Below the pieces are notes generated by a model, which did no database searches, was not told the DNA's origin, and worked only from the letters and a program-made list of their open reading frames with translations. Position numbers and translations under genes: made by a program. 32,043 nucleotides of DNA from the IMG/VR virus record IMGVR_UViG_2713896773_000025; one strand, given 5' to 3'. Positions within the stretch are counted from its first letter, which is position 1; each line of letters starts with the position of its first letter. Below, in pieces: positions 2,333 through 29,419 of the stretch. This DNA is from a virus. Lineage: Duplodnaviria > Heunggongvirae > Uroviricota > Caudoviricetes.

Positions 2333-3226
2333 ATGTCAGCTAAAAATGAACTTGTCGAACTGATGAAAGCAAAAGGTCTTAACCAGACACAGGTCGCCCG
2401 CGCCATTGGTAAGAGCTCGGCCGTAATCAGCCAGTATCTGAATAATAAATACGACGGCGATATTGTATCGCTGGAAAACGATATTCGTAGCTTTATCGAT
2501 CGTCAGCATGAAAAAGAACGTTCGGCACGTATCAGCGTCAAATTTGTTGATACCCCAACAACGCGCAAAGCCGTTGATGTTATACGCATGGCACACGTCG
2601 AAGGTGATATCAACGTGCTCTACGGCGAAGCCGGTCTGGGCAAGACGATGATTTGCAAAGCCTACGTCTCCAAATACCGGGATGCGTTGCTGATTGAGGC
2701 AGACCCTGGCTACACCGCACGGGTAGTCCTGGAAGAGCTCTGTAACCTGCTGGGGCTCAGTACGCGCGGCAATATGCACGAACTCAGCGAGGCCTGCATC
2801 AACAAGCTGCGCGACTCCGGACGCGTGCTGATTATTGATGAAGCCGAGAACCTCCCTCTGCGTGCGCTGGAATCTATCCGCCGCATCCATGACAAAACGG
2901 GGATCGGCATCGTCCTGGTTGGTATGCCTCGCCTGATTCTGAACCTCAAGGGCAAACGCGGTGAGCTCGTACAGCTCTATAGCCGTGTCGGTTTCGCCCT
3001 CAACCTCGGGCATAGCCTGCCGGGTGCTGATATTGACGTCATCGCCAGCAGCGTTCTCCCGGATGGCCTGAATGAAGACCTGAGCAAAGCGCTGTTCAAT
3101 GCGTCAAAAGGTAACGCCCGCCGATTGTTCAAGCTGCTGCGCGGTGCGGTCCGCACCAGCGCGATGAATGATGTTCCGGTCAGCGGTCATATCGTCAACC
3201 AGATAGCTGAAATGCTGATCCATTAA
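2333..3226 (+). CDS. B: MuB-like AAA+ ATPase, transposition target DNA activator (297 aa)
   Basis: Walker A GEAGLGKT and Walker B-like LIIDEAE; N-terminal HTH-like segment; GAGGAAG RBS 7 nt upstream; position immediately after A. Confidence 0.88.
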   Translation: MSAKNELVELMKAKGLNQTQVARAIGKSSAVISQYLNNKYDGDIVSLENDIRSFIDRQHEKERSARISVKFVDTPTTRKAVDVIRMAHVEGDINVLYGEAGLGKTMICKAYVSKYRDALLIEADPGYTARVVLEELCNLLGLSTRGNMHELSEACINKLRDSGRVLIIDEAENLPLRALESIRRIHDKTGIGIVLVGMPRLILNLKGKRGELVQLYSRVGFALNLGHSLPGADIDVIASSVLPDGLNEDLSKALFNASKGNARRLFKLLRGAVRTSAMNDVPVSGHIVNQIAEMLIH

Positions 3227-7580: not shown

Positions 7581-7622
7581 GTCATTACAGCAGGCACTTC
7601 ATAAAGTGCCTGCTGTAATGAC
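7581..7622. repeat. perfect 19-bp inverted repeat with 4-nt loop
   Basis: GTCATTACAGCAGGCACTT cata AAGTGCCTGCTGTAATGAC read directly from sequence; lies between the last early accessory ORF and the gemA RBS. Confidence 0.85.
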
Positions 7623-7641
7623 AACCAACAGGAGAAATATT

Positions 7642-8118
7642 ATGTCCACGCCAGCAAAACGAGGCCTTATAGGTGCAATTAAAGCCGGTCAGGCATATCT
7701 GGGGTGGGATGAGGTAACCTACCGTAGTGTTCTGTCTCGCTTATGCAACGGTAAAACATCATCCACTAAATGCACCCTCGACGAGCTGCAGGCTGTCAGG
7801 GAATATATGCATGACAAGGGTTTTCCTCGCTACTCAGCAAAACACGGTCGACGCCCAAAGGTTGCCAATACGCGCGAGTCAATTCTTTCTAAAATTAACG
7901 CATTACTTGCAGATGCAAAACGTCCGTGGAATTATGCCGAGAAAATGTGCGATCATATGTTTCACGTCAAATACATCGAGTGGTTGACGACTGAACAGTT
8001 AACCAAACTCATGCAGGCTCTCAGCATTGATGCGAGTCGGCGAAAAAAGCGGGAGCGTAATAATGAATCTGGAACAGGTAACGGAGCTGCTGCCATCAGC
8101 AGTGATTCAAATAGCTGA
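7642..8118 (+). CDS. gemA: GemA-like regulatory protein (158 aa)
   Basis: ATG at 7642 with AGGAG RBS; KRGLIGAIKAGQAYLGWDE...YRSVL pattern recalled from the Mu GemA/DUF1018 family; sits immediately before the Mor-like gene. Confidence 0.7.
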   Translation: MSTPAKRGLIGAIKAGQAYLGWDEVTYRSVLSRLCNGKTSSTKCTLDELQAVREYMHDKGFPRYSAKHGRRPKVANTRESILSKINALLADAKRPWNYAEKMCDHMFHVKYIEWLTTEQLTKLMQALSIDASRRKKRERNNESGTGNGAAAISSDSNS

Positions 8119-8497
8119 CCTGATAGGCTTCCCGGCGACCGAGCAGCTTCTTTCTGCTTTTGGTGGCACCACGTTCCCGATAGGTAAAGGCCTCCGCGCT
8201 ATGGGGGCCAGCCGCGCAGCCCTCCTGCGCAATACTATCGGCGATGATAAAACCCAATTACTCATCAAGAATTTCGGCGGAGAAGTTCTCTATTTACCGC
8301 GCTGTGATCGTGCCCTTCGTGAATTACGCAACCGCCGCTTTCTCGCCGAGTTCGCCGAAGTGCGTGAACAAGGTTCATCCTCTCTTATGGCCATGACCTT
8401 TCTTTGCCCTAAGTATGGATTCAGCGATCGTTTTGGATGGCAGTTACTAAGCCAGCACAGACAAAACACATCAATCAATCAACAAGAACTTTTTTAA
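8063..8497 (+). CDS. mor: Mor/C-family transcriptional activator (144 aa)
   Basis: GGEVLYLPR...LRELRNRRFLAEF...YGFSDR resembles the Mor/C core GG.VYIPR...L..DL.I...F.G.N..EL...YG; overlaps the gemA 3' end. Confidence 0.75.
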   Translation: MNLEQVTELLPSAVIQIADLIGFPATEQLLSAFGGTTFPIGKGLRAMGASRAALLRNTIGDDKTQLLIKNFGGEVLYLPRCDRALRELRNRRFLAEFAEVREQGSSSLMAMTFLCPKYGFSDRFGWQLLSQHRQNTSINQQELF

Positions 8498-8510
8498 AAA
8501 GGTAATATAC

Positions 8511-9011
8511 ATGGAGTTTTTAATTGCTTTAATTATATTCGGTGCTTCTGTTGCTGTTTACAAAGATGCTATCACCAATAACATTGCAAGACCTGCCCGT
8601 TGGGGGATTGGTTCAGCATTCATATTCTTCATTGTCATTCCATTGTATCTATTTAAAAGAAAAAAATTAATCGGAAGTGCATTATCAGACTCGGATGATG
8701 CCAGTAGTGTCCAGGGCGGAAAAAATGTTAGCCCCTTATCAGTTTATGTCCTGATGTTCATTTTAGCATTTATTGCCCCAGTGATTAATTTTTACAAAGG
8801 TGATTTACCTGGCTGTGATTCATCCGATGTCCATTCTGTTCTTACAGAGTTGCTGAATGGAGAAAAATTCTCTGAGCCCGCGCAAATGAGTTATGACCGG
8901 GTTAATGCAGTGAGACACTGTAACTTGACTGTTTCTGATAGAGTGTTTTCATATACAGTGAAATGGTACAGTGAAGAGAAAGATCAGTTTGTTGTACAGT
9001 TTGACAACTAA
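8511..9011 (+). CDS. AT-rich membrane protein, candidate moron (166 aa)
   Basis: Three hydrophobic helices plus a roughly 70-aa C-terminal soluble domain; gene is markedly more AT-rich than its neighbours. Confidence 0.6.
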   Translation: MEFLIALIIFGASVAVYKDAITNNIARPARWGIGSAFIFFIVIPLYLFKRKKLIGSALSDSDDASSVQGGKNVSPLSVYVLMFILAFIAPVINFYKGDLPGCDSSDVHSVLTELLNGEKFSEPAQMSYDRVNAVRHCNLTVSDRVFSYTVKWYSEEKDQFVVQFDN

Positions 9012-9013
9012 TT

Positions 9014-9091
9014 CCACTGAACCTCTTCACCTGATTATTCACCTAACCCGATGAAATACTGACGCCATCCCTTTTTAACCGGATGGCGTTA
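9014..9091 (+). promoter_or_regulatory. late-promoter-like element, copy 1: conserved motif CCACTGAACCTCTTCACC (9014..9031) plus hairpin 9060..9091 burying the endolysin start codon
   Basis: Motif is one of three near-identical copies; hairpin arms TGACGCCATCC / GGATGGCGTTA (one G-U pair) with a 10-nt loop; ATG at 9091. Confidence 0.55.
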
Positions 9092-9735
9092 TGCTTTTAA
9101 CACTCCCACAATTTCAGCGTGCAGCAGCTCTTTCGCCAGTGATGGCGCAACGATGGTTTGAACCATTCGGTAAAGCCACCGCTGAATTCGAAATTAATAC
9201 ACCCGCCAGACTTGCCGCCTTTATTGCTCAAACCGGCCATGAAAGCGCGGGTTTCAGTCGGCTCAGTGAAAATCTCTATTACTCTGATGCTGAGCGCGTG
9301 GCGCGTATTTTCCGCAGCGACTTCGATCTCAATAAGAATCGTATTATCGAGCCCTGCGAGATTGAATTTGCCCGACGCTATACCCGTAACCCTGAAAAAA
9401 TGGCGAATTATGTTTACGCAAATCAGGGGGGTAACGGTAATGAAGCATCAGGCGATGGCTGGCGCTTTCGCGGACGTGGCCTGATTCAGATTACCCTGCG
9501 CAATAATTACCGCCTTTGCGGTAAGGCGCTGGGCCTCGATCTCATCGCGAATCCCGATTTGTTACTGGAGTATCTCAACGCAGCCCGCAGCGCTGCCTGG
9601 TACTGGAAGGCAAATGGCTGCAACGAGCTGGCTGACAAAGGCAATTTTCTGGCCGTAACCCGGCGTATCAACCCTCCGGCTGAAGGTCAGGCTGACCGCG
9701 TGGCGCGGCTGAATGTCGCTAAGGCGGCGCTATGA
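9091..9735 (+). CDS. endolysin, glycoside hydrolase family 19 (chitinase-like) type (214 aa)
   Basis: AAFIAQTGHESAGF catalytic-region motif typical of GH19-type phage endolysins; first gene after the late-promoter-like element. Confidence 0.78.
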   Translation: MLLTLPQFQRAAALSPVMAQRWFEPFGKATAEFEINTPARLAAFIAQTGHESAGFSRLSENLYYSDAERVARIFRSDFDLNKNRIIEPCEIEFARRYTRNPEKMANYVYANQGGNGNEASGDGWRFRGRGLIQITLRNNYRLCGKALGLDLIANPDLLLEYLNAARSAAWYWKANGCNELADKGNFLAVTRRINPPAEGQADRVARLNVAKAAL

Positions 9736-9995
9736 AAATATCTCTGCGCGATCTGGTGACGAACCCGGCCACCGGTCGTCTCTCTACGTCAGACACCATC
9801 GTTTTTCTGGCCTTCCTGGTCAGTTCCTTCGTACTGGTCTGGCTCACCGTTACCCGCCCCGAAACTCCTGGTGAGCTGTATCTCACCTATCTGGGCGCGT
9901 GGGTGGCTCAGAGTCAGGCATCAAAACATATGTCCATCAAACGAGCCAGAGAGGTGCGCGATGTGGGAAGCAGCCCAGAAAATCCTGAGGGTTAG
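9732..9995 (+). CDS. single-TM lysis-associated protein, holin-like (87 aa)
   Basis: One hydrophobic helix IVFLAFLVSSFVLVWLTV; located between endolysin and spanin genes; role inferred from position only. Confidence 0.4.
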   Translation: MKISLRDLVTNPATGRLSTSDTIVFLAFLVSSFVLVWLTVTRPETPGELYLTYLGAWVAQSQASKHMSIKRAREVRDVGSSPENPEG

Positions 9996-10593
9996 CTGGA
10001 AACCGCTGCTCGTCGTCGTGGTTCTGGCAGGCTGCGGGATATGGTTCGGCACCTTCCTCACAGGCAACAAGCTGGACGCTCAGGCGCTGGCCTTCAGCCA
10101 GGAGAAGCAACGCCTGACTGATGGTTTCAGTGAAAAAGAACGGCAGTGGGATCAGGAGAGGCTCAGCGCTGCAAATCAGTATGCAGCTGACCTGAAGGCT
10201 GCACTTGATAAGCAGAACGCCTGGCAGCAGAAAGCGGATGCGCTGACCCGCGAGCTGGCTGAAAAGCAAAAGGCACATGACGAGACTGTTCGCGATCTTA
10301 AAAAGAGGCTTAAAGATGCACTTGATAAAGATGGTCCTGGTTATACCGGCATTGGCCCTGGCGGCCTGCAGCTCTTCCGTGAAGCCTTTGGCTACTCAGG
10401 ATCCGAAAGCCACCCCGCTGGTCAGCATCTGCCAGCCACCGCCAGCGGCGCTCCTGGTCATACCGGCCAGACCACAGGCACCGGTGGCGGACTCTCCCCC
10501 ACTGGAATAGTGTCGTTTTCAGCGGAATACGGCGCATGGTGCCAGCTCATTGAGGGCAGGCTGCAGGCAATAAATGAGTATTACAGGAAGTGA
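9961..10593 (+). CDS. i-spanin, Rz-like (210 aa)
   Basis: ATG at 9961 gives a short cytoplasmic N-terminus, a TM helix (PLLVVVVLAGCGIWFGTFL) and a long charged coiled-coil-like periplasmic region; contains an embedded lipoprotein ORF. Confidence 0.7.
   Translation: MWEAAQKILRVSWKPLLVVVVLAGCGIWFGTFLTGNKLDAQALAFSQEKQRLTDGFSEKERQWDQERLSAANQYAADLKAALDKQNAWQQKADALTRELAEKQKAHDETVRDLKKRLKDALDKDGPGYTGIGPGGLQLFREAFGYSGSESHPAGQHLPATASGAPGHTGQTTGTGGGLSPTGIVSFSAEYGAWCQLIEGRLQAINEYYRK
10316..10510 (+). CDS. o-spanin, Rz1-like lipoprotein embedded in +1 frame of the i-spanin (64 aa)
   Basis: MHLIKMVLVIPALALAAC with a lipobox-like LAAC, Pro-rich mature part and a C-terminal-proximal Cys; entirely inside 9961..10593 in another frame. 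Confidence 0.65.
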   Translation: MHLIKMVLVIPALALAACSSSVKPLATQDPKATPLVSICQPPPAALLVIPARPQAPVADSPPLE

Positions 10594-16972: not shown

Positions 16973-17191
16973 ATGCATTACGGGAGCGGGCAACTGTACA
17001 CATTCAAAGCTTTCCTTGATTATTTCACCCCGCAGCAGTGGGTTTTCATTGGCATCTTAGGGGGGCTGGTTATAAAAGTTGCTGAGTGGTTCACTGACCG
17101 ATACTTTGCCCGCAGGCGTCAGTCTGCTAAACCCGATAAGCCGACAACCAAAGCGATCCTCAGCGATAATCCACTGAACCTCTTCATCTGA
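16973..17191 (+). CDS. doubtful 72-aa ORF in the G-I intergenic region
   Basis: Weak RBS; one hydrophobic helix; its 3' end overlaps the conserved late-promoter motif, so it may be spurious. Confidence 0.25.
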   Translation: MHYGSGQLYTFKAFLDYFTPQQWVFIGILGGLVIKVAEWFTDRYFARRRQSAKPDKPTTKAILSDNPLNLFI

Positions 17192-17227
17192 ACCTCCCCG
17201 CAGTGGTGCCGTATCGTCGGCACCATG
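17171..17227 (+). promoter_or_regulatory. late-promoter-like element, copy 2: motif CCACTGAACCTCTTCATC (17171..17188) plus hairpin 17204..17225 ending in the I-gene start codon
   Basis: Stem GGTGCCG / CGGCACC (17205..17211 / 17218..17224) extendable by a T-A pair that uses the A of the ATG at 17225; loop TATCGT. Confidence 0.55.
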
Positions 17228-18340
17228 AAAAAGACACTCATCGCTTCACTCACCCAGGAAATTAACACCGCTACTCCCGGTGTCATTCAGCTCTTTCCGG
17301 CTGGTGAATTCCGCGCCCGTGATGGTCGCCCGACCGAATGCGCCGCCTGGCTGATGACGCGGGAAATTGCAGAGCGCCTTATTGCCGCTGCTGATGCCCG
17401 CGCCACCCCCTATGTCCTTGACTACGAACACCAGACCCTTCGGGCCGCTAAAAACGGTTTGCCTGCGCCTGCAGCTGCATTCTTCAAAAAGCTGGAGTGG
17501 CGGGATGGCGAGGGTTTGTTCGCCATCGATGTCGAGTGGACAGCCGCTGCGGCTGCAATGGTCGAGGCGAAAGAGTATCGCTTTATTTCCCCCGTATTTT
17601 CTTACGACAAAACCGGTCAGGTGCTGGAGTTGCTTAACGCCGCGCTGACCAATACACCAGCGGTGGACGGGATGGAGGAAGTGTTACTTGCTGCCGCCTC
17701 CCTGATGGCCGCGCATTTAACCACAGAGGGTCAGACCGAAATGGATGAAGAATTTCTCAATGAGCTACTGAGCAACCTGCGCTGGATGCTCAATCTGCCA
17801 ACCGCCTCAACGAAAGAAGAGATTATGGCTGAGCTGCAAAAAATCATCACCATGATTTCCAATGGCCAGGGGACTGCAGCGGCGTCGGTCAGTCTGCTGG
17901 ATATCCTGAACCAGAACGCGCAGAGCATCGCCGACCTGTCAGCGAAACTCGACACGCCTGACCCGGCTAAGTGGGTTTCGGTGGAGGTCATGCATTCAGC
18001 CGTTCAGCAGGCAACAGAGCGTGCAGGTGCGGGTAATACCGCCGCACTCGCCACGCAACAGGCTGAAGCGTTGATTACGGTTGCCCTCGGCGACGGTCGT
18101 CTGCTTCCGGCACAGCAGGCATGGGCTGCGTCACTGGCGAAATCCGATCCGGCCAGTCTTACCGCCTTTATCGAAAAAGCGCCAAAGATTGCCGCACTGA
18201 CGACCAGTCAGACTCAGGGGCAACCGCCTGCAGGCCTTCCGTCACACCCGTCACAGGGTGCTGAAGATGATGCGATTGACCCGGCCATCTGCTCCATGAT
18301 GGGCAATGACCCGGAAAGCGTCGCGAAATACCTCAAATAA
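17225..18340 (+). CDS. Mu I-like head protease/scaffold protein (371 aa)
   Basis: Position between G-like and major capsid genes; Ala-rich scaffold-like C-terminal half. Confidence 0.78.
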   Translation: MKKTLIASLTQEINTATPGVIQLFPAGEFRARDGRPTECAAWLMTREIAERLIAAADARATPYVLDYEHQTLRAAKNGLPAPAAAFFKKLEWRDGEGLFAIDVEWTAAAAAMVEAKEYRFISPVFSYDKTGQVLELLNAALTNTPAVDGMEEVLLAAASLMAAHLTTEGQTEMDEEFLNELLSNLRWMLNLPTASTKEEIMAELQKIITMISNGQGTAAASVSLLDILNQNAQSIADLSAKLDTPDPAKWVSVEVMHSAVQQATERAGAGNTAALATQQAEALITVALGDGRLLPAQQAWAASLAKSDPASLTAFIEKAPKIAALTTSQTQGQPPAGLPSHPSQGAEDDAIDPAICSMMGNDPESVAKYLK

Positions 18341-18757: not shown

Positions 18758-19666
18758 GTGTTAATTAACGTAAAAAATGTGCGTCAGATTTTCATTAATC
18801 TGAAAGCGACCTTCCAGAACGCCTTTGATCAGACGCCGTCCGACTGGCAGAAGATTGCGATGGTGGTACCGTCGACCGGGAAAGAGAACGACTACAGCTG
18901 GCTGAGCCGTTTCCCGAAAATGCGTGAGTGGATTGGCGACAAGGTTATTAAAGCGTTCGCCGCGTTCAACTACACCATTCGCAATAAAGACTGGGAAGCG
19001 ACGGTTGAAGTTGAGCGTAACGATATCGAAGACGATCAGATTATGGGCTATGCCCTGCAGGCTAAAGGTGCGGGCCAGTCCGCTGCCGAACTGCCAGCCG
19101 ATATCGTCTTTGCACTCCTGAACAACGGCTTCACCAACCTTTGCTACGATGGTCAGCCCTTCTTTGATACCGACCACCTTTCCGGTGGCAAGTCGGTCTC
19201 TAACAAAGGCACGAAAAAGCTTGCCGTCACCTCGCTTGCCGCAGCAAAAGCAAGTTACGGCGCTGCACGAACCGCCATGCGCAGCCTGAAGGATGATGAA
19301 GGCGCATCCCTGAAAATTCGCCCGACCATCCTGGTTGTGCCTCCGGCTCTTGAAGATGATGCCAACTACCTGATGACGGCTGACCGCTTCCCGGACAATA
19401 CGCCAAACCCTTACAAGGGGACGGCTGAGGTTATGGTTGTCCCTGAGCTGACGTCTGATACCGCCTGGTTCCTTCTGGATAACACCAAGCCCGTGAAGCC
19501 CCTGATTTACCAGGAGCGTAAGAAACCAGTCTTTGTTGAGCAGACCGACTACAACTCTGACAACGTGATGATGCGTAAGAAGTTTCTCTTCGGTGCTGAA
19601 GCACGTGCAAACGGTGGCTACGGCTTCTGGCAGATGGCGTATGGCTCTACCGGGGAGGACGCATAA
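18758..19666 (+). CDS. major capsid protein, Mu T-like (302 aa, GTG start)
   Basis: AAGGAGAG RBS before GTG; size and position match the Mu major head subunit T. Confidence 0.85.
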   Translation: MLINVKNVRQIFINLKATFQNAFDQTPSDWQKIAMVVPSTGKENDYSWLSRFPKMREWIGDKVIKAFAAFNYTIRNKDWEATVEVERNDIEDDQIMGYALQAKGAGQSAAELPADIVFALLNNGFTNLCYDGQPFFDTDHLSGGKSVSNKGTKKLAVTSLAAAKASYGAARTAMRSLKDDEGASLKIRPTILVVPPALEDDANYLMTADRFPDNTPNPYKGTAEVMVVPELTSDTAWFLLDNTKPVKPLIYQERKKPVFVEQTDYNSDNVMMRKKFLFGAEARANGGYGFWQMAYGSTGEDA

Positions 19667-20073
19667 TGCCGATTCAAATCACTGCCCGCCGTAACGGTTT
19701 TCGCCGTCTCGGCATCGCCCACAGCGCGAATACTGTCACCTGGCCGGATGACCAGTTCAGCGACAGCGAACTCCAGATTCTGGAAAACGATCCCAATCTG
19801 ATTGTGGTCCGCCTGCAGGATGTGCCTGAAATCTCAGGGGGTGATGATGCTGTTTCCGCCCTGATCGCTGAGCGTGACGGCCTTAAGGTACGCATCAGCG
19901 AACTGGAGGCGACGGTTCTGCAGCTCAATCAGGATGGTGATGCACTTAAGCAGCAGCTAACCAGTGCAAACAGCACCATCGCAGAACTGGAAACTGAACG
20001 CAATGCACTGCGTCAGGAGCTGGATTCGCTGAAGGCCGGTTCGCAAACCCCGGACAAAAAGGCGAAGGGGTAA
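19666..20073 (+). CDS. Mu gp35-like head-associated protein (135 aa)
   Basis: Follows the major capsid gene with overlapping start; coiled-coil C-terminal half. Confidence 0.5.
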   Translation: MPIQITARRNGFRRLGIAHSANTVTWPDDQFSDSELQILENDPNLIVVRLQDVPEISGGDDAVSALIAERDGLKVRISELEATVLQLNQDGDALKQQLTSANSTIAELETERNALRQELDSLKAGSQTPDKKAKG

Positions 20074-28979: not shown

Positions 28980-29015
28980 TTTGTGGTAACGTAAGTTCTC
29001 CTTCAAAAGCAATAC

Positions 29016-29077
29016 CCACTGAACCCCTTCACCGATAATTTAAATTTCCATGCCGGTAGTATTACGGCATGGAAATG
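29016..29077 (+). promoter_or_regulatory. late-promoter-like element, copy 3: motif CCACTGAACCCCTTCACC (29016..29033) plus 12-bp hairpin 29044..29076 covering both candidate start codons
   Basis: Stem ATTTCCATGCCG / CGGCATGGAAAT with loop GTAGTATTA; ATGs at 29069 and 29075 are inside the 3' arm. Confidence 0.55.
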
Positions 29078-29419
29078 TTGATTGATCCAACGACCGGCGA
29101 TTATACCGGCGACAGCTCAGACTCTTTAGCGAATGCCGTCTACTTACGGCTGATGACGCCCCTTGGCTCATGGTGGGCTGATCCAACTCTGGGCTCTCTT
29201 TTGCATACACTCCGCCGCGAAAAGGATGTGTCTCGCGTTCAACAACTCGCGGTGCAGTATTCGCGGCAGGCCCTGCAACCGATTATTGACGACGGTCGCG
29301 CCCAGTCCATTTCCGTTACTGCAGAGCACTGGCAAAAAGGCTGGATGCTGCTTCATATCACCGTCACGTCTGCGAGCGGAACGCCGCAGACCTGGAAATA
29401 TCCGGTTAAGGTCAGCTGA
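29069..29419 (+). CDS. baseplate protein, Mu gp46 / GP46-family (116 aa)
   Basis: Size and position before the baseplate J-like gene. Confidence 0.68.
   Translation: MEMLIDPTTGDYTGDSSDSLANAVYLRLMTPLGSWWADPTLGSLLHTLRREKDVSRVQQLAVQYSRQALQPIIDDGRAQSISVTAEHWQKGWMLLHITVTSASGTPQTWKYPVKVS

What the first reader, a model, noticed from the sequence alone, without database searches (positions are those of the whole stretch)
9014..9091. Conserved 18-nt motif plus start-codon-burying hairpin upstream of the lysis operon (copy 1 of a three-member family)
CCACTGAACCTCTTCACC (9014..9031) recurs almost identically at 17171..17188 and 29016..29033 (16 of 18 positions invariant). Each copy is in a gap directly before the first gene of a late block (endolysin, I protease/scaffold, gp46-like baseplate). 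Each is followed 10 to 28 nt later by a perfect hairpin of unrelated sequence whose 3' arm ends in or covers the start codon; here the arms are TGACGCCATCC / GGATGGCGTTA and the 3' arm contains the only plausible SD (GGATGG). Established knowledge: Mu late transcripts (lys, I, P, mom) start near a shared conserved sequence and need activator C, so the motif is most simply the late-promoter/activator site of this phage. The structural but not sequence conservation of the hairpins is not explained by a promoter alone and suggests the late leaders are translationally gated, perhaps in the manner of Com opening the mom hairpin in Mu. The motif-to-ATG spacing (about 35 nt in copies 2 and 3) would leave almost no leader if the motif were a classic -35-region activator site, so the geometry is unresolved.
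Basis: partly seen in the sequence, partly recalled or inferred. Interest (0 to 1): 0.72.

Follow-up and report, generated by a model that had tools for sequence, protein, structure and literature searches.

The report
Late promoters overlapping start-codon hairpins
The repeated 18-base motif is most likely the activator box of three late promoters of a Mu-like prophage, placed so that transcripts from each promoter start inside or after a conserved hairpin, which therefore hides the first gene's start signals only on read-through RNA; this has a phage T4 precedent.

Summary
The motif occurs three times (0.01 expected by chance), each copy before the endolysin, I protease or gp46 gene, and each followed by a stable hairpin. 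The same layout recurs in over a dozen related Mu-like prophages and viral contigs.

A -10-like hexamer (yAnnnT) lies 23 bp after the motif in 47 of 50 distinct instances. This places the box at about -53 to -36, the geometry of Mu C-dependent late promoters.

At the I and gp46 sites the hexamer is in the hairpin loop. The start codon follows 6-7 nt later in all 34 distinct instances, with no Shine-Dalgarno sequence, so these mRNAs are predicted to be leaderless. At the endolysin site the predicted start falls inside the 5' arm.

Late-promoter transcripts would therefore lack the hairpin. Only read-through RNA from upstream would fold it, as at phage T4 gene e.

Hairpin pairing covaries between phages, including a compensated ATG-to-GTG change. 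No Com-like protein is encoded.

The promoter reading is supported and the Com-like gating is not. No transcript start has been mapped. I class this as a new variant of known kinds.

The parts
9010..9034 (+). Activator box, copy 1. The core 18-mer is 9014-9031; the conserved flanks are tAAy on the 5' side and TGA, a weak -35-like element, on the 3' side.
   Evidence: logo over 50 distinct instances.
9055..9060 (+). Predicted -10 hexamer AATACT of the endolysin promoter, 23 bp after the box.
   Evidence: The hexamer is AATACT or GATACT at this offset in all 8 distinct endolysin-site instances.
9060..9091 (+). Hairpin with arms 9060-9070 and 9081-9091 and loop 9071-9080. The 3' arm holds the only Shine-Dalgarno-like run (GGATGG, 9081-9086) and the A of the ATG at 9091. 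It is followed by the moderately U-rich TTATGCTTTT.
   Evidence: -18.2 kcal/mol, z -5.0.
9065..9068 (+). Predicted late transcript start, 5-8 nt after the hexamer and inside the 5' arm. RNA starting at 9067 keeps only 4 nt of that arm.
   Evidence: Inferred from the sigma-70 spacing rule. RNA from 9067 folds at -4.5 kcal/mol, z -0.28.
17167..17191 (+). Activator box, copy 2 (core 17171-17188). It overlaps the last codons and the stop of the holin-like ORF 16973-17191.
17203..17226 (+). Hairpin with arms 17203-17211 and 17218-17226. The loop, 17212-17217, is exactly the predicted -10 hexamer TATCGT. The 3' arm ends in the AU of the start codon.
17225..17227 (+). ATG of the I protease/scaffold gene, 7 nt after the hexamer. 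The predicted transcript start is at 17224-17225, giving a leaderless mRNA.
   Evidence: the 5' end of this RNA is unstructured, -0.4 kcal/mol.
29012..29036 (+). Activator box, copy 3 (core 29016-29033).
29044..29076 (+). Hairpin with arms 29044-29055 and 29065-29076. The loop, 29056-29064, holds the predicted -10 hexamer TAGTAT (29057-29062). The start codon is inside the 3' arm.
   Evidence: Covariation.
29069..29071 (+). ATG of gp46, 6 nt after the hexamer. The predicted transcript start is at 29069, giving a leaderless mRNA.
8063..8497 (+). Gene for the only Mor/C-family activator in the window; the candidate box-binding protein.
   Evidence: Pfam Mor, 34.9 bits against a cut-off of 24.9; conserved helix LCPKYGFSDRFGW in phages that carry the box.

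Best explanation
The three motif copies are the activator boxes of three sigma-70-type late promoters of a Mu-like prophage. They are most likely bound by the phage's single Mor/C-family protein. Each box lies at about -53 to -36, next to a weak -35-like TGA, and a -10 hexamer (yAnnnT) follows 23 bp after the box. At the I and gp46 promoters the start codon begins 6-7 nt after the hexamer, so transcription should start at or one base before the AUG and give leaderless mRNAs. At the endolysin promoter the start falls inside the 5' arm of the hairpin. In all three cases the late-promoter transcript lacks the 5' arm, so its start codon is free, and at the endolysin site so is its Shine-Dalgarno sequence. 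Sense transcripts that read through from upstream carry both arms and fold a hairpin that hides the AUG or Shine-Dalgarno sequence; in some relatives this hairpin also terminates transcription. Expression of the first gene of each late block therefore depends on firing of its own promoter. The benefit is clearest at the endolysin, which early read-through would otherwise express too soon. Shown here: motif, hexamer, spacings, missing Shine-Dalgarno sequence, hairpins and their covariation. Inferred: activator binding, transcript starts, leaderless translation and the effect on read-through RNA.
For: The motif is non-random and recurs at the same three junctions in many relatives. In 50 distinct instances classified by their downstream gene, A at hexamer position 2 and T at position 6 occur in 47. 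The box-to-hexamer spacer is 23 nt in 39 of 42 instances and 22 or 24 in the other 3, and 24 different hexamers all fit yAnnnT. At the endolysin site the hexamer lies outside the hairpin, so its conservation is not a requirement of the loop. This geometry matches Mu C sites, which are centred at -43.5 with bases -52 to -34 required, a -10 present and no -35 (PMC2582627), and the roughly 26-bp occupancy of the C tetramer (bioRxiv 10.1101/2025.05.02.651988). All 34 distinct I and gp46 instances have 6 or 7 nt between hexamer and start codon, and this holds where the box-to-hexamer spacer changes by 1 nt. tblastn places protein residues 1-3 at that codon. In the close relative L001, gp46 has the second-weakest Shine-Dalgarno pairing of 43 genes (-3.3 kcal/mol); I has -5.8, coming from a GGUG too far upstream, while most genes score -7 to -15. 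Every instance folds a hairpin. Own arms pair better than arms swapped between phages: 0 of 5000 permutations reached the observed mean. At the gp46 site 83% of cells pair against 32-53% when the partners are slid, and 6 pairs show changes on both sides. One of these compensates the ATG-to-GTG change. G.U outnumbers A.C 12 to 2 in the core stem, which points to pairing in sense-strand RNA. Read-through forms fold with z -5.0, -2.35 and -4.2, while RNAs from the predicted starts are unstructured. The Mor-family gene is present. The Klebsiella phage has a G at box position 9 at all three of its sites, together with changes in the Mor recognition helix. The mechanism has a documented precedent at T4 e, soc, 49 and I-TevI (PMC3014915).
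Against: No transcript start has been mapped, and every start quoted here comes from the -10 spacing rule. The box has no real dyad symmetry (only TGAA/TTCA), unlike the Mu C and Mor sites. The window's Mor-family protein is only distantly related to Mu C (27% over 75 aa). Leaderless translation is rare and weak in enterobacteria, and 3 of 17 gp46 instances start with GTG, which leaderless mRNAs are reported to use poorly (from memory, not checked in a paper here). The I and gp46 operons and the operons upstream of them are all late, so the benefit of silencing read-through there is unclear; an internal AUG without a Shine-Dalgarno sequence would be weak anyway. At sites 2 and 3 the overlap of hairpin and start codon is partly forced by the tight packing.
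Confidence: 0.6

Rival explanations
1. The late transcripts start soon after the motif and contain the whole hairpin, so the leaders are translationally closed. A trans-acting factor opens them, as Com opens the mom hairpin in Mu.
For: The hairpins cover the Shine-Dalgarno sequence or AUG and covary. Mu does use Com for mom.
Against: No CxxC...CxxC ORF of 35 aa or more that resembles Com is present in the window. tblastn with Mu Com finds nothing better than E = 1.2 in the window, the full prophage L001 plus L082, or the complete phage L083, and none is annotated there. This model does not explain the invariant A and T at fixed spacing from the box, nor why that hexamer lies outside the hairpin at the endolysin site. 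No -10-like element lies between the box and the hairpin at sites 2 and 3.
Confidence: 0.08
2. The hairpins mainly form or protect RNA 3' ends for the upstream operon, as terminators or as barriers to 3' exonucleases. They overlap the next promoter and start codon only because the short gaps leave the unconstrained spacer and discriminator as the only room.
For: Relatives carry canonical hairpin-plus-T-run terminators in the same place. These are L009 site 1 and L104, L111, L119, L163 and L196 just after the -10, L162 and L190 between the box and the -10, and L176 and L184 around the -10. Site 1 of the window is followed by TTATGCTTTT.
Against: Sites 2 and 3 of the window and most relatives have no U-tract after the stem (ATGAAAAAG, ATGGA...). 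The terminator scan found none on the + strand near site 1. In every endolysin-site instance where the gene follows directly, the 3' arm is the Shine-Dalgarno sequence, which a pure terminator would not need.
Confidence: 0.2
3. The inverted repeats act in DNA. They extrude as a hairpin or cruciform that presents the -10 hexamer single-stranded in the loop and so help promoter opening, perhaps coupled to replication.
For: At sites 2 and 3 the hexamer is exactly in the loop. Mu late transcription is reported to use the replication clamp (PMC12867686, which does not mention hairpins).
Against: At the endolysin site the hairpin lies downstream of the hexamer, and in L162 and L190 it lies upstream, so its position relative to the -10 is not fixed. 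The 12-to-2 excess of G.U over A.C fits RNA rather than DNA. Stems of 7-12 bp extrude poorly.
Confidence: 0.05
4. The motif works as RNA, not DNA. It would be a protein-binding site or a C-rich Rho-loading site on read-through transcripts.
For: The motif and the sequence after it are C-rich and G-poor, and it is always in the sense orientation.
Against: Rho-loading sites are degenerate, whereas this is a near-invariant stretch of 18-26 nt. Its fixed 23-bp distance to a -10-like hexamer is a DNA promoter feature. No Rfam family matches.
Confidence: 0.04

Closest known systems
Phage Mu C-dependent late promoters (Plys, PI, PP, Pmom)
   Same: Both have a Mor/C-family activator gene just upstream of the lysis genes. 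Both have a conserved box centred near -44 next to or over the -35 region, a recognisable -10 and no proper -35. Both place promoters before lys and before I.
   Different: The box sequence is unrelated and essentially asymmetric; Mu has a 16-bp imperfect dyad, TTAT-N6-ATAA at mom. A scan of Mu with the box-plus-hexamer model gives no real hit. There is one activator here rather than the Mor-to-C cascade. The third promoter lies before gp46, where Mu has no intergenic gap between gp45 and gp46. From the Mu sequence, the lys and I start codons are preceded by Shine-Dalgarno sequences (GGGAAG, CAGGA); with the -10 assigned by eye, the leaders are about 24 nt. In Mu the terminator after C lies upstream of Plys rather than over its transcript start.
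Phage T4 genes e, soc, 49 and I-TevI: late promoter inside an inhibitory hairpin
   Same: A hairpin sequesters the Shine-Dalgarno sequence and/or AUG on transcripts that come from upstream. The late promoter lies in the DNA that encodes the 5' strand, so late transcripts lack that strand and are translated (PMC3014915). In both phages a lysis enzyme is one of the controlled genes.
   Different: T4 uses gp55-dependent TATAAATA promoters, whereas this is an activator-dependent sigma-70 promoter. Here two of the three genes are predicted to be leaderless, with the -10 in the hairpin loop. The transcript starts here are predicted, not mapped.
Mu Com/mom translational activation
   Same: A hairpin covers the start region of a late gene in a Mu-type phage.
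   Different: No Com homologue is present, and the regulated transcript is predicted not to contain the hairpin.
Leaderless mRNAs such as lambda cI from PRM (named from memory)
   Same: The start codon lies at the distance from the -10 at which transcription normally starts, and there is no Shine-Dalgarno sequence.
   Different: Here the leaderless genes would be late structural or assembly genes at the head of long operons. Three gp46 instances use GTG.

Membership tests
Mor/C-dependent late promoter (Mu type) | The phage encodes a Mor/C-family activator. | tested here: met
   Pfam Mor PF08765, E 1.6e-8, 34.9 bits against a cut-off of 24.9. The relation to Mu C and Mor is distant and no solved homologue is found by sequence.
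Mor/C-dependent late promoter (Mu type) | A conserved box centred near -43.5, a recognisable -10 and no consensus -35. | tested here: met
   The box ends 23 bp before a yAnnnT hexamer. This puts its centre at about -44.5 if transcription starts 7 nt after the hexamer. Only TGA remains of a -35. The transcript start itself is inferred.
Mor/C-dependent late promoter (Mu type) | The box is an imperfect dyad. | tested here: not met
   By inspection of the logo, only the 4-bp arms TGAA and TTCA are symmetric, and TTCA is not conserved in all relatives.
Mor/C-dependent late promoter (Mu type) | The activator binds the box and transcription depends on it. | not testable with these tools
   There is only indirect support. 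The box varies together within a phage, and the Klebsiella phage combines a variant box with changes in the Mor recognition helix.
Com/mom translational activation | A Com-type zinc-ribbon RNA-binding protein is encoded. | tested here: not met
   No such ORF is found. tblastn with Mu Com gives a best E-value of 1.2. None is annotated in the full prophage or the complete related phage.
Com/mom translational activation | The transcript from the regulated promoter contains the inhibitory hairpin. | tested here: inconclusive
   The predicted starts lie in or after the 5' arm, but they have not been mapped.
T4 e-type control (late promoter inside an inhibitory hairpin) | A hairpin sequesters the Shine-Dalgarno sequence or AUG on transcripts from upstream. 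| tested here: met
T4 e-type control (late promoter inside an inhibitory hairpin) | The late transcript start lies within or after the 5' strand of the structure. | tested here: inconclusive
   This is met by prediction from the conserved hexamer and spacing at all three sites and in all relatives. No 5'-end data are available.
T4 e-type control (late promoter inside an inhibitory hairpin) | A T4-type late promoter (TATAAATA, gp55). | tested here: not met
   The promoter type is different, so this is a functional analogue and not a member.
Leaderless mRNA | No Shine-Dalgarno sequence, and the start codon lies at the transcript start. | tested here: inconclusive
   The Shine-Dalgarno sequence is absent. 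There are 6-7 nt from the hexamer to the start codon in 34 of 34 instances. The start codon is ATG in 31 and GTG in 3. The transcript start has not been mapped.
Intrinsic terminator | A G+C-rich stem directly followed by a U-tract. | tested here: not met
   Window sites 2 and 3 have no U-tract and site 1 is weak; the scan found none on the + strand. The feature is met in some relatives: L009 and L104, L111, L119, L163, L176 and L184.

The most novel reading that the evidence does not exclude
The covarying inverted repeat that brackets the -10 hexamer could be part of how the promoter fires rather than a device against read-through. Examples would be a hairpin formed on transiently single-stranded or replicating DNA that presents the -10 in its loop and couples late transcription to replication, or a signal that processes read-through RNA into leaderless mRNAs.
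Probability: 0.07. Interest if true: 0.85.

Novelty: new variant of a known kind. Interest (0 to 1): 0.55.

Why it matters
The result gives a concrete, testable map of late gene control for a widespread group of Mu-like prophages of Enterobacterales and other Gammaproteobacteria. The map comprises a new asymmetric activator box for a Mor-family protein, three promoters, and predicted leaderless mRNAs for a head protease and a baseplate protein. If the transcript starts are confirmed, it would be a clear case outside T4 of a promoter placed within a hairpin so that only its own transcripts are translatable. It would also show leaderless translation used for late structural operons in enterobacterial phages, where it is rare. 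The box and hexamer rule could improve annotation of start codons and operons in such prophages.

Tried and rejected
- **Com-like factor.** I looked for a zinc-ribbon ORF and ran tblastn with Mu Com; both were negative.
- **Similarity to characterised phages.** A near-identity DNA search (megablast) of 8000-10000 against the phage collection found nothing. Only one record of the E. coli genome collection holds a close copy.
- **Known RNA families.** Rfam gave no hit anywhere in the window.
- **Fourth promoter.** A scan with the box-plus-hexamer model found only the three sites in the window and in the full prophage L001, and nothing real in Mu.
- **Literature.** The motif string matched only unrelated primer sequences, and I found nothing on leaderless late genes in Mu-like phages.
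- **Column-wise covariation at the I site.** I did not do this because the 5' arm sits in different registers in different phages. I used own-arm against swapped-arm duplex energies instead.
- **Dyad symmetry of the box.** Checked by eye; only a 4-bp TGAA/TTCA symmetry exists.
- **Motif as uptake signal or Rho-loading site.** Considered and dropped because of its fixed spacing to the hexamer.
- **Internal scaffold start in I.** I looked for one like Mu Z. A candidate ATG at 17741 (codon 173) has GAGGG upstream, but this is suggestive only.

Full report
**Observation**

The 18-mer CCACTGAACCTCTTCACC lies at 9014-9031. One-mismatch copies lie at 17171-17188 and 29016-29033, all on the + strand. 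That is three matches against 0.01 expected, and none of 100 shuffles reached three.

The window is a Mu-like prophage. It carries a transposase A gene (230-2287), B (2333-3226) and GemA (7606-8118). A Mor-family gene lies at 8063-8497, a GH19 endolysin at 9091-9735 and the I protease at 17225-18340. The major head gene lies at 18758-19666 and GP46 at 29069-29419.

Each motif copy lies in the gap before the endolysin, I or gp46 gene. Each is followed 28, 14 or 10 nt later by a stable hairpin whose 3' arm reaches or covers the start codon. Folded as read-through RNA, the three regions give -18.2, -17.6 and -22.8 kcal/mol, with z-scores of -5.0, -2.35 and -4.2.

**Conservation**

A close copy of the prophage lies in one record of the E. 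coli genome collection and carries the same three sites. A search with the major head protein returned 80 loci.

The motif and a following hairpin occur at the same junctions in prophages of:
- Kosakonia, Trabulsiella and Pectobacterium;
- several Symbiopectobacterium and Serratia;
- a genome labelled Martelella alba.

They also occur at the I junction alone in Halothiobacillus and Azotobacter.

An exact-pattern scan of viral contigs added many more real instances. It also returned dozens of chance matches, which serve as a control. Klebsiella phage ST405-OXA48phi1.1 has a Mor protein 74% identical to the window's. It carries the variant CCACTGAAGCCCnTCAAy at all three junctions.

**What the comparison adds: a -10 hexamer at fixed spacing**

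I aligned 50 distinct instances by the motif. These had been classified independently, by the protein encoded downstream. The box extends to tAAy-CCACTGAACCyCTTCmnC-TGA. The next strongly conserved positions are an A at +25 and a T at +29 after the box, each in 47 of 50.

These are positions 2 and 6 of a hexamer yAnnnT. There are 24 different hexamers, including AATACT, TATCGT, TAGTAT, CATTCT and GATCAT. The box-to-hexamer spacer is 23 nt in 39 of 42 instances and 22 or 24 in the other three. Unclassified matches show the pattern in only 16 of 77, and most of those 16 are evident lysis-site variants.

At the endolysin site the hexamer (9055-9060) lies just 5' of the hairpin. At the I and gp46 sites it lies in the loop (17212-17217 and 29057-29062). 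Its conservation therefore follows the box and not the hairpin.

With transcription starting about 7 nt after the hexamer, the box spans about -53 to -36. Mu C sites are centred at -43.5, need bases -52 to -34, have a -10 and lack a -35 (PMC2582627). The C tetramer covers about 26 bp (bioRxiv 10.1101/2025.05.02.651988), which is similar to the extended box here.

The window encodes one Mor-family protein. Its predicted DNA-binding helix, LCPKYGFSDRFGW, is conserved in phages that share the box. It is altered to SDRTGWHLL in the Klebsiella phage with the variant box. The promoter and activator-box reading is therefore well supported, although binding itself is inferred.

**Geometry resolved: predicted leaderless mRNAs**

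In all 34 distinct I and gp46 instances the start codon begins 6 or 7 nt after the hexamer. This holds even where the box-to-hexamer spacer differs by one. tblastn aligns protein residues 1-3 to that codon.

In the RefSeq-annotated relative, most of the 43 prophage genes have Shine-Dalgarno pairing of -7 to -15 kcal/mol. gp46 has -3.3, the second weakest. I has -5.8, and that comes from a GGUG too far upstream to serve.

RNA beginning at the I start codon is essentially unstructured, at -0.4 kcal/mol. The simplest reading is that the I and gp46 operon transcripts start at the A of the AUG, or one base before it.

For the endolysin, the predicted start (9065-9068) lies inside the 5' arm. RNA from 9067 keeps only AUCC of that arm and folds no better than shuffled sequence (z -0.28). 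This would free the GGAUGG Shine-Dalgarno sequence.

**The hairpins are selected RNA structures**

- Every instance folds a hairpin at the corresponding place.
- Arms from the same phage pair much better than arms swapped between phages. Means are -13.3 against -10.2 kcal/mol at the I site and -19.4 against -15.9 at the gp46 site, and 0 of 5000 permutations reached the observed means.
- In the ungapped gp46-site alignment, 83% of cells pair against 32-53% when the partners are slid. Six of 13 pairs show changes on both sides, and 0 of 500 shuffles reach the covariation score.
- Where the start codon is GTG instead of ATG, the opposing base changes from T to C.
- In the core stem G.U outnumbers A.C 12 to 2 in fixed columns. 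This favours pairing in sense-strand RNA over a DNA cruciform or antisense RNA.

Late-promoter transcripts should lack the 5' arm. The RNA that folds these hairpins must therefore come from upstream.

**Mechanism proposed**

The design matches that documented for T4 genes e, soc, 49 and I-TevI. There a hairpin hides the ribosome binding site on early read-through transcripts, and a late promoter lies within the DNA for its 5' strand, so late transcripts are translatable (PMC3014915).

The benefit is clearest at the endolysin. No + strand terminator was found between the Mor gene and lys, so early transcripts would otherwise express a lysis enzyme.

In some relatives the same position holds a canonical terminator, a hairpin plus a T-run. 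It lies just after the -10, between the box and the -10, or around the -10. The common denominator is therefore an RNA hairpin that acts on read-through transcripts and that the local promoter's own transcripts escape. Whether the main effect is occlusion or 3'-end formation may differ between sites and lineages.

At the I and gp46 sites the benefit is less obvious, because the operons on both sides are late. Part of the overlap with the start codon is forced by the tight packing. I rate that part of the model as moderate.

**Why the Com-like model is not favoured**

No Com-like zinc-ribbon ORF is present in the window. tblastn with Mu Com finds nothing meaningful in the window, the complete close prophage or the complete Klebsiella phage, and none is annotated there.

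Mu itself differs. From the Mu sequence, its lys and I start codons are preceded by Shine-Dalgarno sequences. With the -10 assigned by eye, its leaders are about 24 nt. Its terminator after C lies upstream of Plys. The box model finds no real site in Mu.

**Caveats**

- No 5' end has been mapped.
- The box is essentially asymmetric, unlike Mu's dyads.
- The activator is only distantly related to Mu C and Mor.
- Three gp46 instances use GTG, which from memory is a poor leaderless start codon.
- Box positions 1-15 were fixed by the pattern used in the viral-contig scan, so their invariance there is partly by construction. The genome loci were found through a protein and still keep the core.

**Novelty and score**

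Searches of the held literature found no description of this box or of leaderless late genes in Mu-like phages, and Rfam has no match. Each ingredient is known: Mor/C-type promoters, promoter-in-hairpin control and leaderless mRNAs. The combination, the new box and the -10 hexamer lying exactly in the loop of a covarying hairpin make it a new variant of known kinds. Interest is 0.55.

Noticed in passing
window 16973-17191 (+): A 72-aa ORF matches Pfam Phage_holin_2_1, the P21 S-type holin family (E 2.4e-9). It is the last gene of the first late block, about 8 kb from the endolysin, and motif copy 2 overlaps its last codons. The RefSeq relative annotates a hypothetical gene on the opposite strand at this place (L001 28941-29174).
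   Followed up: partly
L026-L036, L038, L061, L066, L075, L077, upstream of the I homologue: Mu-like prophages of Firmicutes carry a palindrome, GTTATAACGCGTTATAAC, 45-60 nt before the I-homologue start. Their leaders bear normal Shine-Dalgarno sequences. This is probably their own dyad-type late activator box.
   Followed up: no
L060 8491-8560 and 19755: A Thiomicrorhabdus prophage has a different, dyad-symmetric box (TATCAAGcCCTTGATA) at the same position. Its -10, TAAACT, lies in the loop of a CCTCC/GGAGG hairpin, and the I start codon follows 7 nt after the hexamer. A second copy of the box lies at 19755. The hairpin-plus-leaderless layout therefore extends beyond this motif family.
   Followed up: partly
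L006 8453-8500: In Symbiopectobacterium sp. 'North America' a deletion just after the box removes the -10, the hairpin and the start of the I gene, which suggests prophage decay in a symbiont.
   Followed up: no
L083 9267, 18060, 29747: Klebsiella phage ST405-OXA48phi1.1 has G instead of C at box position 9 at all three of its sites. Its Mor recognition helix reads SDRTGWHLL instead of SDRFGWQLL. This is a candidate pair for mapping specificity.
   Followed up: partly
L104, L119, L156, L163, L196: More distant relatives that keep the box CCACTGAACCCCTTCA encode two Mor-family paralogues, as Mu encodes Mor and C. The window has only one.
   Followed up: no
window 8511-9011 (+): The 166-aa ORF between the Mor gene and the endolysin promoter has no Pfam match. 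In the otherwise 95% identical E. coli prophage an unrelated ORF takes its place. This looks like a variable cargo slot at the end of the early region.
   Followed up: no
window 17741 (+): An in-frame ATG at codon 173 of the I gene has GAGGG upstream. Its position is similar to that of the internal Z scaffold start in Mu I. It may give an abundant scaffold protein, while the full-length protease is made at a low level from the leaderless start.
   Followed up: partly
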